A program made the position numbers. Below, in pieces: positions 40,201 through 43,200 of a stretch of DNA of 64,000 bases (within the stretch, counting starts at the first letter, position 1; the number at the start of each line of letters is the position of its first letter). The stretch is from assembly GCF_030013205.1 (NCBI RefSeq), contig NZ_CP122648.1. The stretch is one strand, 5' to 3'. Source of the DNA: Escherichia coli (GTDB taxonomy: Bacteria > Pseudomonadota > Gammaproteobacteria > Enterobacterales > Enterobacteriaceae).

Positions 40201-43200
40201 TCACTAAAGAAAAAACCCGCCTAAAGCGGGTTTTCAAAAAGCACCAGCTATGATCATGCTGCTTTGCGACGACGAAGCTTACCCTGCTGCTCTTTACCAG
40301 AGACAGTAGCGTGAGTGAACGCATTAGGAGCAGCCTTCATCAGAACTTCAACAGCAGCACCCATACCTGCGAATGCTTTCATTGTGTCGAACTTAACCTG
40401 TGGCTTGGTTGCTTTTTGATCTTCCATAGAAAACTCCAGAAGCTATACCGAAACAATTCCTGTTGTTTACTCATCATCAATAGATGATACGCAATATTTA
40501 TTTTTAAATTTAAGGTTCTTTGGCGTAACTTCATCAGATATATCAAAACCGTCCAGAATTCTATTGAATGTAGCTTCTGGCATATCATCATGAACGGAAA
40601 TCTCACCCGATCGCTGCTTTCTAACCATGTTATCCACTCGCCAAATTATAGCTTCAGCGTAAACAACATAACTTGGATGCTTGATAAAGCGATGATCACC
40701 AGAATTCAAGACGCAAGACGGATCGTGGGGGACACCATCCTTGATACTAGAAATATTAACAACTAAAACACAATAACAATCGTTAACGGGGTAATAAACA
40801 GGATCATTACAAATCACATGAAGATGATTGCATGGCCCAGTTGGGGCAAGCACAGTTCCTTTCCTGTATGGCTGATAATCCGTCATGATAATTGCAAAGA
40901 AAATTCCTTAAGTTTCTGAGATTCTTCCATTTTGCCAATTATACGATTAGCCTCATCCTCGCTTTTACCCTCACTGATCAGCATTTCTTTCAGGTCTATA
41001 GGCTTACGAGAATTGCCAGGATTGTGCCACTCTGGACAAACGCTTTCTAAATGCGTCATGTTTGCGAGATCAAATCGGTTCATATGCCCATACAGAGAAT
41101 AGATTTCATCTAAAATCCGGATATCTGCACGGCTCAACTCATCAAAGACCTCGTCTGCATCCATTTCCCTCGGATCTGAACGCAACAACACATCATGCCC
41201 GTTCGTCTCTATCAGGTTGTACCAGTAGTCACCAATACCTTCAGCCTTACCACGAATCAAGTTCAGCGTATTCGACATGACTGGACCAAATTTCATAGAG
41301 TAAAGGCTATCTTCGCCGATCATCCTGCCATGCTTCAAAATCGACTTGCGGTTAGACAGATAGAGCAGCTTCATCAATTTCAGATATGCCATGCGCCCAC
41401 CTCGCTTAAGAAGTAGGTATGCAGCCATTTGAGCTACTTTTTCTTCGCAAAACATATAAGAAACCTCAAAGATAGTGAACTTTGTAATTATTCTCGATAC
41501 TTCATGGGTTGCTTCATCACCAACATGAGCTTCTTATGGTGTGCCCACTTAGGCCTAAGCAACTAGTTACCTTGTTTGTCAAGTTTATAGCTGGCTTTAA
41601 TCATGGTCAATTGAAGTGATGAGCAAATGATGCTTTCTAAGAATAACAGGTTCCCAATAGGCTCCCACAAAGTGTATAACTAGTTGTTTTTCAAAAACGG
41701 TACATCCTATCGAGCATTGGTGCAACGCTAAACCGACCACTCCAGTGAACGTCAGTTTTTTCAGGCATTGCGCTGGTTTGGTTGATTTTTTGCATTTCAG
41801 AATTACCGTGCATTTTCAAATGTAGAGATTATTTTATCGATATATCATGGGGTTATGTTATTCAGCATCACTGTTCAGGAGGCTCAATAGCGGGGTACTA
41901 TACCATAACAACAGGAAGCGCCTGTCTCATTGCAAAAGAAAATTGAGATCCTCTCAAGGCATGAAGCTCTCACGAAGTGATGGAAATAATCTTATTAGCC
42001 GTTAGCTTTGTTAAGGCCAATGATAAACAATCCAGGTTCGACGATAAATAAAAATCACACATTAAACTCCGGTGATATCTCTCCCTGCTAATAGCACTGA
42101 TAGAGAAAAAAAGAACCCAATAAGCATTGGGTTCTTTTATGTAATACCTTCCATACCATCGAAGAACTTCACATATTATTTTTCTAGTTCAATACCAAAT
42201 AGATCATAAATTGAATTAGAGATATCGTTTGGAATTTGAATCAATTCCGTTGAATCTGGGTCACACGATTGTACGAAGTCATTTAATTTCTGCGCCGCAC
42301 CATGCATTTTTGTAACGTCTTTTAGGACTCGTTTTCCTTCGTCTTCCTGACGTTTCATATCAGTTACAATGTCATTGAAATCCAGTTTCCCTGCGACTGC
42401 CAGATTTTTCATCTCCTTCAGATTTTTTTTCATCTCTTGTTGAGATAACGTTTTCACCTGATCTGTTATGTATTTTTCGCAATACTCATCAATATCCACT
42501 GCAGCTACCAGATCTGCTAATGCACTACCATATGAACATGAAATTAAAAGGGAAGCCAAGGGTTTTAAGCGAATATCGTCATATTGATGATATGCATTTT
42601 CTAAATTTATAAAACCATCACCTAAAGTTTGTAGATGTAACGAAGCTATAGATTCATCATCAATAGATTTTTCATAAAATAGTTGAATAGTTGATGGGAG
42701 TCCATTCGGGCTTGCTACATCAAAAGTACATCTGTCTATGAGACTTACTGTCTGATGTTCTACTTTATTACAGACAAAACTAATCGCATAATGAAAAATC
42801 GCCCTGTCTACATATAAAGCGATATAATCACGATCGCCTAATTGCTCTTGAGAGCAGTCATCAATACACTTATCGACCCACAGTTTGAGTTCATTTATTC
42901 TGCTGATTAACGACACATTTTTGATACTTGCTGTCCATAAATTAAGGGTGATTTTTTGAATAAATAAATCTATTTTTGCAATAATCACATCGCGATTATT
43001 CGCAGTTGCATAATCAACCGATTTATTATATATATCCTTTATTTTTTCTTTGCTCGCATCTTTAATTTCGTATTGATTTGAATGGAGTGTATTATTGAAG
43101 AATTCTGTTGCACTTGAAATTATACCTGACATGATTCATCCACCTTTTTTGTCGTACCGTGTCCTCCTTATAATTCTTTTGCCATCTGCTCACTATCAAA

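What the first reader, a model, noticed from the sequence alone, without database searches (positions are those of the whole stretch)
40254..41455. Panacea-domain antitoxin-like gene coupled to an unrecognised Cys/His-rich protein at the prophage end
The 190 aa protein has an N-terminal region (AYLKLMKLLYLSNR...LYSMKFGPV) that fits the Panacea/DUF4065 domain, known as a promiscuous antitoxin domain (PanA/SocA). Its stop overlaps by 4 nt the start of a 139 aa protein with Cys/His motifs (GPCNHLHVICNDP, CYCV, PHDPSC, GDHRF) that I cannot place in any family. A 57 aa basic ORF and a terminator follow. The operon is the last cargo before attR. Panacea partners are highly diverse, so the 139 aa protein is a candidate novel toxin or abortive-infection effector.
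Basis: inference. Interest (0 to 1): 0.75.

Follow-up and report, generated by a model that had tools for sequence, protein, structure and literature searches.

The report
Prophage PanA antitoxin with MazF-fold toxin
This is a two-gene toxin-antitoxin-type module (a Panacea-domain antitoxin plus a MazF-fold toxin) carried at the end of an E. coli prophage; the toxin family was already described in 2022 with a tested relative, so it is a new member of a known kind rather than a new toxin.

Summary
On the minus strand, a 190 aa Panacea-domain gene (Pfam PF13274, E=3e-18) overlaps a 139 aa gene by 4 nt (ATGA). A 57 aa basic ORF and a strong terminator follow. All of this lies about 250 bp inside the right end of a defective lambdoid prophage integrated in dusA of E. 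coli.

The PanA–toxin pairing is kept in all 24 related loci that have upstream DNA. Both genes are under purifying selection.

The "Cys/His-rich" look is mostly clade-specific; only H21, D55, C58 and H65 are conserved family-wide. The 57 aa ORF is phage backbone, not part of the module.

Toxicity, RNA cleavage and any anti-phage role remain untested for this E. coli pair. Verdict: a new member of a known kind, of modest interest.

The parts
40883..41455 (-). panA: 190 aa stand-alone Panacea-domain antitoxin. Panacea core is residues 27-137. A conserved C-terminal extension carries the motif cPEW.dP..S.PI and predicted helices 155-161 and 166-190. There is no N-terminal DNA-binding domain.
   Evidence: ORF. 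Pfam PF13274, E=3.1e-18. phrog_1281, E=3.5e-26. RefSeq name. Alignment of 22 orthologous PanAs. Fused AF2 model. dN/dS 0.12 against phage Lys8385Vzw.
40467..40886 (-). panT: 139 aa MazF/Kid/CcdB-fold toxin candidate, a member of Kurata cluster T6. Its start overlaps the panA stop (ATGA), implying translational coupling. Residues H21, D55, C58, H65, S72 and Y76 are conserved family-wide.
40254..40427 (-). 57 aa basic ORF (phrog_2741) with its own GGAG ribosome-binding site, 39 nt downstream of panT. It is probably co-transcribed, but it is phage backbone and not a conserved part of the PanAT module.
   Evidence: phrog_2741, E=8.4e-36. Absent from all related PanAT loci. Present next to xis in mEp460, O157:H7 FRIK2069 and strain G5, which carry a different gene in the slot.
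40211..40235 (.). Intrinsic terminator hairpin (11-bp stem) flanked by A and T runs on both sides. It lies between the convergent xis-like gene and the 57 aa ORF and ends the panA-panT-orf57 transcript.
   Evidence: Terminator scan; sequence read.
41582..41610 (-). Sigma-70-like promoter candidate (TTGACC-17-TAAACT) about 127 nt upstream of the panA start. Position is plausible, but the match is not above chance.
   Evidence: 3 promoter-like sites found against 4.0 expected from shuffles.
41710..41816 (-). Remnant of the original dusA 5' end, marking the right prophage boundary (attR side). Its 83%-identical partner copy is at 9004-9110, next to the integrase.
   Evidence: blastn of the two junctions; RefSeq pseudogene 'tRNA-dihydrouridine synthase, missing C-terminus'.
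39899..40207 (+). Context only: PrtN-family / excisionase-like gene, convergent with the module. The variable cargo slot lies between this gene and attR.
   Evidence: RefSeq annotation; annotated as excisionase in phage mEp460.

Best explanation
This is a PanA-PanT type II toxin-antitoxin-like module carried as accessory cargo in the variable slot between xis and the attachment site of a dusA-integrating lambdoid prophage.

panA and panT are transcribed together from the attR side and are translationally coupled through the ATGA overlap. The 139 aa PanT is a divergent MazF/Kid-fold protein of the published T6 cluster. By analogy with the tested P. moraviensis T6 toxin, free PanT most likely arrests growth by blocking translation, probably as an endoribonuclease. 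It would act through a groove lined by the family-invariant H21, D55, C58, H65, S72, Y76 and S/T47. PanA (a stand-alone Panacea domain plus a conserved helical C-terminal extension) most likely neutralises PanT by direct 1:1 binding.

In a lysogen the pair would either stabilise the prophage or, more likely given its position, act as an abortive-infection-type defence that is released when an incoming phage perturbs PanA.

What is shown: the gene structure, the Panacea domain, the MazF-type fold, T6 family membership, deep conservation of the gene pair, and purifying selection. What is inferred: toxicity, RNase activity, the catalytic residues, direct neutralisation and the biological role.
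For: - Panacea domain: PF13274, E=3.1e-18.
- 4-nt ATGA overlap.
- T6 membership: homologs were found in the very strains listed in T6 of Kurata 2022 Dataset S1. These are Pantoea septica LMG 5345 (56% identity), Chimaeribacter 2016-Iso4 (55-57%) and G. diazotrophicus PA1 5 (36%). Their PanA-toxin distances of -4, -1 and +15 nt reproduce the table.
- AFDB50 hits from further T6 organisms: P. reinekei (35% identity, TM 0.89), Beggiatoa alba, Gilliamella intestini, Neorhizobium galegae, Rhodanobacter denitrificans and Malikia spinosa. Some are already labelled PemK/MazF toxin.
- Kurata et al. (PMC8832971) report that P. moraviensis PanT (T6) is toxic, is rescued by PanA, is pulled down with PanA, and specifically inhibits 35S-Met incorporation.
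- A PanA homolog sits directly upstream on the same strand in 24 of 24 related loci with upstream DNA, from Enterobacterales to Alphaproteobacteria. 13 of the 22 intact pairs have the same 4-nt overlap.
- A fused paired-alignment AF2 model gave pTM 0.83 despite a disordered 30-aa linker, with confident PanA C-terminal helices.
- Purifying selection: panA dN/dS is 0.12 against phage Lys8385Vzw; dN is 0.08-0.11 with saturated dS against Kosakonia and Pluralibacter for both genes.
- Accessory-cargo signature: lower GC (0.38-0.45 against 0.47-0.50), and other cargo in the same slot in sister prophages.
Against: - No experiment exists on this E. coli pair (literature searches).
- Several other PanA-linked candidate toxins were non-toxic in E. 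coli in Kurata's tests, including an E. coli MOD1 pair (cluster T1) and a MazF-like T8 member.
- There is no significant sequence-level similarity to PF02452 or to MazF/Kid. 0 of 106 family members reach E<=0.001 against Pfam. hhalign probability is below 1% against MazF, Kid and a 31-sequence MazF profile. PDB sequence searches found no relevant match.
- The canonical MazF catalytic Arg29 has no conserved counterpart; the tentative equivalent is Leu22. RNase chemistry is therefore unproven.
- No PADLOC defence model matches.
- The PanA-toxin interface could not be inspected. Only pTM and pLDDT were available, from a shallow 20-pair alignment and a linker trick.
- PanA has no DNA-binding domain, so autoregulation is unexplained.
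Confidence: 0.75

Rival explanations
1. The pair is a PanAT module, but the toxin is not an RNase. It uses the CcdB/MazF fold for another target, for example poisoning DNA gyrase like CcdB. Alternatively it carries a distinct His/Asp/Cys-based enzymatic activity on another substrate.
For: - No sequence-level match to PemK/MazF.
- The canonical MazF Arg29 is not conserved, while a different invariant set (H21, D55, C58, H65) defines the family.
Against: - The tested T6 homolog specifically inhibited translation, not replication (PMC8832971).
- Conserved S/T at positions 46-47 sits where the MazF 'P-x-T-T' motif lies in the (non-significant) alignments.
Confidence: 0.12
2. The pair is not a growth-arresting toxin-antitoxin system in E. 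coli. The 139 aa protein would be a non-toxic phage accessory protein, such as a nucleic-acid-binding factor, with PanA as its partner or chaperone. Alternatively PanA would act as a proteolytic adaptor in the manner of SocA rather than as a stoichiometric inhibitor.
For: [quoted passage not shown]
- The founding Panacea protein, SocA, works as a ClpXP adaptor (established knowledge; not tested here).
- No PADLOC hit.
Against: - The only T6 member tested was a bona fide toxin-antitoxin pair with a direct complex.
- The toxin fold is one used almost only by toxins.
- Strict co-occurrence and translational coupling hold across 24 loci.
- The fused model has pTM 0.83.
Confidence: 0.1
3. It is a three-gene system in which the 57 aa basic protein is a functional third component with PanA and PanT.
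For: Same strand, 39-nt gap, own GGAG ribosome-binding site, shared terminator. It forms a conserved PHROG family.
Against: - Absent from all 24 related PanAT loci.
- Retained next to xis in prophages whose slot holds an unrelated 177 aa gene.
- Missing where a different PanA pair fills the slot.
Confidence: 0.03

Closest known systems
PanAT of Pseudomonas moraviensis LMG 24280 (PanA WP_083354365.1 / PanT WP_083201923.1; toxin cluster T6; Kurata et al. 2022 PNAS, PMC8832971)
   Same: - Same two-gene order (antitoxin first) with an overlapping stop and start.
- Stand-alone Panacea antitoxin without an N-terminal domain. Its N-terminus (MIFSEQKVAQ) is near-identical to ours (MFCEEKVAQ).
- A toxin of about 130-140 aa with no CDD/Pfam hit but a MazF/PemK-like fold.
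- Our toxin is homologous to several other listed T6 members.
   Different: - Ours is in a lambdoid prophage of E. coli; the P. moraviensis pair was scored 'NotPhage'.
- Identity to the closest Pseudomonas relatives seen is only about 35-40%.
- The P. moraviensis sequence itself could not be retrieved, so the direct pairwise identity is unknown.
- Our pair is experimentally untested.
MazF / Kid (PemK) / EndoA endoribonuclease toxins (Pfam PF02452)
   Different: - No significant sequence or profile similarity.
- The beta1-beta2 loop is only 2 residues, where MazF has a long loop.
- The catalytic Arg29 is not conserved.
- The family has its own invariant H21, D55, C58 and H65, and an extra C-terminal helix (139 aa against about 110).
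- The antitoxin is Panacea, not MazE/Kis (AbrB/SpoVT type).
CcdB gyrase poison
   Different: Lower structural score than MazF or Kid. The tested family member blocks translation, not replication (PMC8832971).
SocAB of Caulobacter crescentus (founding Panacea/DUF4065 system)
   Same: The antitoxin carries the same Pfam domain (PF13274).
   Different: SocB is an unrelated toxin that targets the beta clamp, and SocA acts as a ClpXP adaptor (established knowledge). Here the partner has a MazF fold, and the published T6 pair forms a direct complex.

Membership tests
Panacea-domain antitoxins (PanA; Pfam PF13274 / DUF4065) | Significant match to the SocA_Panacea profile over most of the model | tested here: met
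   i-E=3.1e-18, 67.2 bits, residues 27-137 against model positions 1-109 of 113. RefSeq names it 'Panacea domain-containing protein'.
Panacea-domain antitoxins (PanA; Pfam PF13274 / DUF4065) | Conserved, co-directional two-gene arrangement with a small partner gene | tested here: met
   A PanA homolog lies directly upstream of the toxin homolog in 24 of 24 loci with upstream DNA. 13 of the 22 intact pairs have the 4-nt overlap.
Panacea-domain antitoxins (PanA; Pfam PF13274 / DUF4065) | Neutralises the partner's toxicity and binds it | not testable with these tools
   Indirect only: the fused paired AF2 model has pTM 0.83, and a homologous pair was validated by Kurata 2022.
PanT toxin cluster T6 (Kurata et al. 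2022, Dataset S1) | Sequence homology to listed T6 members | tested here: met
   tblastn/phmmer hits to the toxins of Pantoea septica LMG 5345 (56% identity, E=1e-48), Chimaeribacter 2016-Iso4 (55%, E=3e-49) and G. diazotrophicus PA1 5 (36%, E=6e-18). AFDB50 hits to the P. reinekei, Beggiatoa alba, Gilliamella, Neorhizobium, Rhodanobacter and Malikia proteins. The T6 list was read.
PanT toxin cluster T6 (Kurata et al. 2022, Dataset S1) | Antitoxin-first order, PanA without an N-terminal domain, short overlap or gap | tested here: met
   Window: A|T order with a -4 overlap. The distances -4, -1 and +15 in the three shared strains reproduce the table.
PanT toxin cluster T6 (Kurata et al. 2022, Dataset S1) | Toxic on expression; translation inhibition | not testable with these tools
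   Shown only for the P. moraviensis member (PMC8832971).
MazF/PemK/Kid endoribonucleases (Pfam PF02452) | Match to the PemK_toxin profile, or significant profile-profile similarity | tested here: not met
   No hit for the query. 0 of 106 family members at E<=0.001 and 1 at E=0.013. hhalign probability 0.2-0.3% against MazF, Kid and a 31-sequence MazF profile. Kurata et al. report HHpred similarity for T6, which I could not reproduce with the shallower profiles available.
MazF/PemK/Kid endoribonucleases (Pfam PF02452) | MazF/Kid/CcdB SH3-like barrel fold | tested here: met
MazF/PemK/Kid endoribonucleases (Pfam PF02452) | Catalytic residues (MazF R29/T52; Kid H17/R73/D75) | tested here: inconclusive
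   In the non-significant hhalign alignment, H21 pairs with MazF H28, L22 with R29, and S46/S47 with T52/T53. The Arg is not conserved. The family's own invariant polar set is H21, D55, C58, H65, S72 and Y76. No coordinates were available to check spatial clustering.
MazF/PemK/Kid endoribonucleases (Pfam PF02452) | Sequence-specific RNA cleavage | not testable with these tools
   Needs biochemistry.
Known anti-phage defence systems (PADLOC-DB v2) | Match to any defence-system protein model | tested here: not met
   No hits at E<=0.01 for any of the three proteins.

The most novel reading that the evidence does not exclude
T6-type PanT toxins may form a distinct catalytic lineage of the MazF/CcdB fold. 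They have lost the canonical Arg/Thr machinery and the beta1-beta2 loop, and may instead use an invariant His21/Asp55/Cys58/His65 constellation, giving a new cleavage chemistry or a new target.

Separately, the xis-attR slot of dusA-integrating lambdoid prophages may be a hotspot where alternative PanA-linked cargos are swapped as abortive-infection defences. At least two different PanA pairs and an unrelated 177 aa gene occupy this slot in E. coli.
Probability: 0.2. Interest if true: 0.5.

Novelty: new member of a known kind. Interest (0 to 1): 0.25.

Why it matters
If the pair is active, about 4% of complete E. coli genomes (204 of 5426) carry a prophage-borne, MazF-fold translation toxin held in check by a Panacea antitoxin. 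That could affect prophage maintenance, superinfection immunity or persistence. It would also give an E. coli-native model for the T6 PanAT class, for what triggers Panacea antitoxins (an open question raised by Ernits et al. 2023), and for the unusual His/Asp/Cys/His site on a MazF scaffold. As it stands, the finding mainly improves annotation. The 'hypothetical protein' (WP_014640052.1, called 11 residues too short by PGAP) can be labelled a PanA-associated MazF-fold toxin of cluster T6.

Tried and rejected
- Sequence searches for the 139 aa protein gave nothing informative: Pfam, NCBIfam (only noise at 17 bits), PADLOC and PDB sequences, both as a single sequence and as a 106-sequence profile.
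- PanA has no solved relative by sequence.
- hhalign of the family profile against E. coli MazF, Kid and a 31-sequence MazF profile was not significant. The MazF link therefore rests on fold only, plus the HHpred result reported by Kurata et al.
- A zinc-finger or 'Cys/His-rich' reading was rejected. Across 119 representatives at 50% identity or less, only H21, D55, C58 and H65 persist. H23 is often F or Y, C26 is mostly L, and the other cysteines vary.
- The 57 aa ORF as a third component was rejected.
- I could not retrieve the P. moraviensis PanT sequence. Accession lists were truncated, it was not among the listed hits, and it was not in the NetFlax supplements. The link to the validated toxin therefore runs through shared T6 membership, not a direct alignment.
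- An Rfam scan of 40100-42200 found only sub-threshold terminator-like noise.
- The promoter scan was not above chance.
- Literature searches for the accessions and for DUF4065 plus MazF found nothing beyond the two Hauryliuk/Atkinson-group papers.
- The non-toxic 'MazF' partner from F. xanthum was checked and belongs to cluster T8, not T6.
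Full report
**Where the window comes from.**
The region is 100% identical to the chromosome of E. coli ETEC4079 (NZ_CP122643). RefSeq annotation shows a lambdoid prophage inserted in the 5' end of dusA. A tyrosine integrase and dinI sit at the left end, next to the reconstituted dusA. The Cro/CI and YfdP/Q/R-type early region and a PrtN-family (excisionase-like) gene sit at the right end. Beyond that lie a dusA 5' pseudogene remnant, a DUF2713 gene and zur. The terminase and tape-measure genes are truncated, so the prophage is defective. 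A 107-bp, 83%-identical repeat of the dusA 5' end at 9004-9110 and 41710-41816 marks the two boundaries.

**Observation check.**
Three co-directional ORFs lie on the minus strand: 40883-41455 (190 aa), 40467-40886 (139 aa) and 40254-40427 (57 aa, net charge about +6).
- The first two overlap by ATGA.
- panA has a GAGG Shine-Dalgarno sequence. panT has none at a useful distance, which fits translational coupling.
- An 11-bp-stem terminator at 40235-40211 closes the unit, facing the convergent xis-like gene.
- The 190 aa protein matches Pfam PF13274 SocA_Panacea at E=3.1e-18 over nearly the whole model.

**What the 139 aa protein is.**
It has no Pfam, NCBIfam, PADLOC or PDB-sequence match. It does belong to phrog_19071 and to a large family: 871 clusters at 50% identity reach E<=1e-3. 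Homolog alignment shows the N-terminus from the ATG is conserved, so PGAP's 128-aa GTG start is too short.

With a 40-sequence alignment AlphaFold2 gives a confident model (pLDDT 92.6, pTM 0.86).
- Foldseek agrees; the top 46 hits are MazF or Kid entries, best E=1e-3, prob 1.0.
- Against AFDB50, the closest models are uncharacterised proteins of about 130-140 aa. Several are already labelled 'PemK/MazF family toxin'.

**Link to published work.**
Kurata et al. 2022 (PMC8832971) catalogued PanA-associated toxins. Their cluster T6 is annotated 'EndoA/PemK/MazF-family RNAses' by HHpred, with antitoxin-first order and PanA lacking an N-terminal domain. T6 contains the experimentally validated P. 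moraviensis pair. That PanT is toxic in E. coli, is rescued by PanA, co-purifies with PanA, and selectively blocks 35S-methionine incorporation.

A scan of GTDB species genomes with my alignment returned 27 loci. Three come from strains in the T6 table:
- Pantoea septica LMG 5345 (56% identity)
- Chimaeribacter coloradensis 2016-Iso4, listed as 'Yersiniaceae bacterium 2016Iso4' (55%)
- G. diazotrophicus PA1 5 (36%)

In these, the PanA-toxin distances I measured (-4, -1, +15 nt) are exactly those tabulated. AFDB50 hits add six more T6 organisms, including P. reinekei (35% identity, TM 0.89). The 139 aa protein is therefore a T6 PanT. I could not obtain the P. moraviensis sequence itself. The other MazF-like PanTs in that paper belong to different clusters: B. 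ruminantium (validated) is T25 and F. xanthum (non-toxic) is T8.

**Conservation of the pair.**
In all 24 related loci with upstream DNA, a PanA homolog sits directly upstream on the same strand. 22 of these are intact pairs and 2 have a degraded toxin. 13 of the 22 intact pairs have the same 4-nt overlap. The loci span Enterobacterales, Methylococcales, Beggiatoales, Sutterella and Alphaproteobacteria.

Both genes evolve under purifying selection. panA has dN/dS 0.12 against phage Lys8385Vzw. panT has 0 non-synonymous and 3 synonymous changes against that phage. Against the Kosakonia and Pluralibacter orthologs, dN is 0.08-0.11 with saturated dS.

**PanA and the complex.**
PanA orthologs share the Panacea core plus a conserved C-terminal segment (cPEW.dP..S.PI followed by helices). 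I predicted a fusion of PanA, a (G4S)6 linker and PanT from 20 paired sequences. It gave pTM 0.83 although the linker is disordered, and PanA helices 155-161 and 166-190 are confident. That is what one expects if the two proteins dock in a defined way. No PAE or coordinates were available, so the interface is unknown and this result is only indirect.

**Mechanism.**
The fold and the tested homolog point to translation arrest, most simply by RNA cleavage. At the sequence level, however, the family is not a PF02452 member. 0 of 106 members match at E<=0.001, and hhalign against MazF, Kid or a MazF profile is non-significant.

Across 119 representatives the invariant polar residues are H21 (99%), D55 (98%), C58 (96%), H65 (97%), S72 and Y76, with S or T at position 47.

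In the topologically sensible but non-significant alignments, H21 falls beside MazF R29 (which itself pairs with a conserved Leu), and S46/S47 fall on T52/T53. The beta1-beta2 loop is only two residues long. My inference is that the active groove sits in the usual place but uses different residues. This is unproven.

**The 57 aa ORF and the slot.**
The 57 aa protein (phrog_2741) is absent from all related PanAT loci.
- It is retained next to xis in phage mEp460, O157:H7 FRIK2069 and strain G5. In those the slot holds an unrelated 177 aa gene (phrog_4350; no Pfam or PADLOC hit).
- In O19:H7 strain 730V1 the slot holds a different PanA (32% identical to ours) with a 153 aa partner and no 57 aa gene. 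That partner aligns weakly to the C-terminal half of the T6 profile (hhalign E=0.0016, prob 16%).
- In the circular phage form the order is xis, 57 aa, panT, panA, attP, int.
- 549 of 5426 complete E. coli genomes have xis plus the 57 aa gene. 204 have the full module.
- The module's GC (0.38-0.45) is below that of the neighbouring early genes.

This is a variable accessory-cargo slot, which fits but does not prove a defence role. No PADLOC model matches.

**Verdict.**
The module is a new, untested E. coli prophage member of a published PanAT class (T6, MazF fold).

Modest points of interest remain:
- the non-canonical conserved residue set on a MazF scaffold
- the swapping of PanA-linked cargo at one prophage slot
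- a start-codon correction for the RefSeq toxin model

Noticed in passing
window 40254-41700; loci L031 3426-3959, L032 3727-4260, L033 3727-4260, L034 3334-4382: The slot between the xis-like gene and attR of dusA-integrating lambdoid prophages carries at least three alternative cargos in E. coli. One is this PanAT pair. The second is an unrelated 177 aa gene (phrog_4350, WP_000956557.1; no Pfam or PADLOC hit) in mEp460, O157:H7 FRIK2069 and strain G5. The third, in O19:H7 730V1, is a second and different PanA (32% identity) with a 153 aa partner.
   Followed up: partly
L034 3337-3795 (-), E. coli O19:H7 730V1, WP_001547986.1: The 153 aa partner of the alternative PanA has no PHROG hit. It aligns weakly to the C-terminal half of the T6 toxin profile (hhalign E=0.0016, prob 16%), matching C58, D64, H65, F67 and S72. 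It may be a very divergent relative of the same toxin family.
   Followed up: partly
window 40467-40853 vs 40467-40886: RefSeq/PGAP annotates the toxin as 128 aa from an internal GTG (WP_014640052.1). Homolog N-termini and the ATGA overlap show that the 139 aa ATG start is correct.
   Followed up: yes
window 41557-41569 and 41677-41689: Two copies of the palindrome AACTAGTT, 117 bp apart, lie between the panA start and the dusA remnant. They could be an operator, an integrase or IHF arm site, or chance.
   Followed up: no
window 9004-9110 and 41710-41816: The prophage supplies a surrogate dusA 5' end (83% identical over 107 bp) that keeps dusA intact after integration. The original 5' end is left behind as a pseudogene at the other boundary.
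   Followed up: partly
window approx. 20460-22080 (record NZ_CP122643 4715337-4716951): The tape-measure and large-terminase genes are truncated and abut each other, so the head and tail structural region is deleted and the prophage is defective.
   Followed up: no
window approx. 23060-28100 (record 4717930-4722975): There are other accessory-cargo-like genes inside the prophage: an LPS core heptose(II)-phosphate phosphatase gene, a tRNA-Gly, an AraC-family regulator, a DUF6731 protein and a hypothetical protein. They lie between the lysis genes and the Q antiterminator.
   Followed up: no
window 42176-43132 (-): A DUF2713 gene with very low GC (about 0.33) lies between the prophage boundary and zur. 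It is frameshifted in some other E. coli strains.
   Followed up: no
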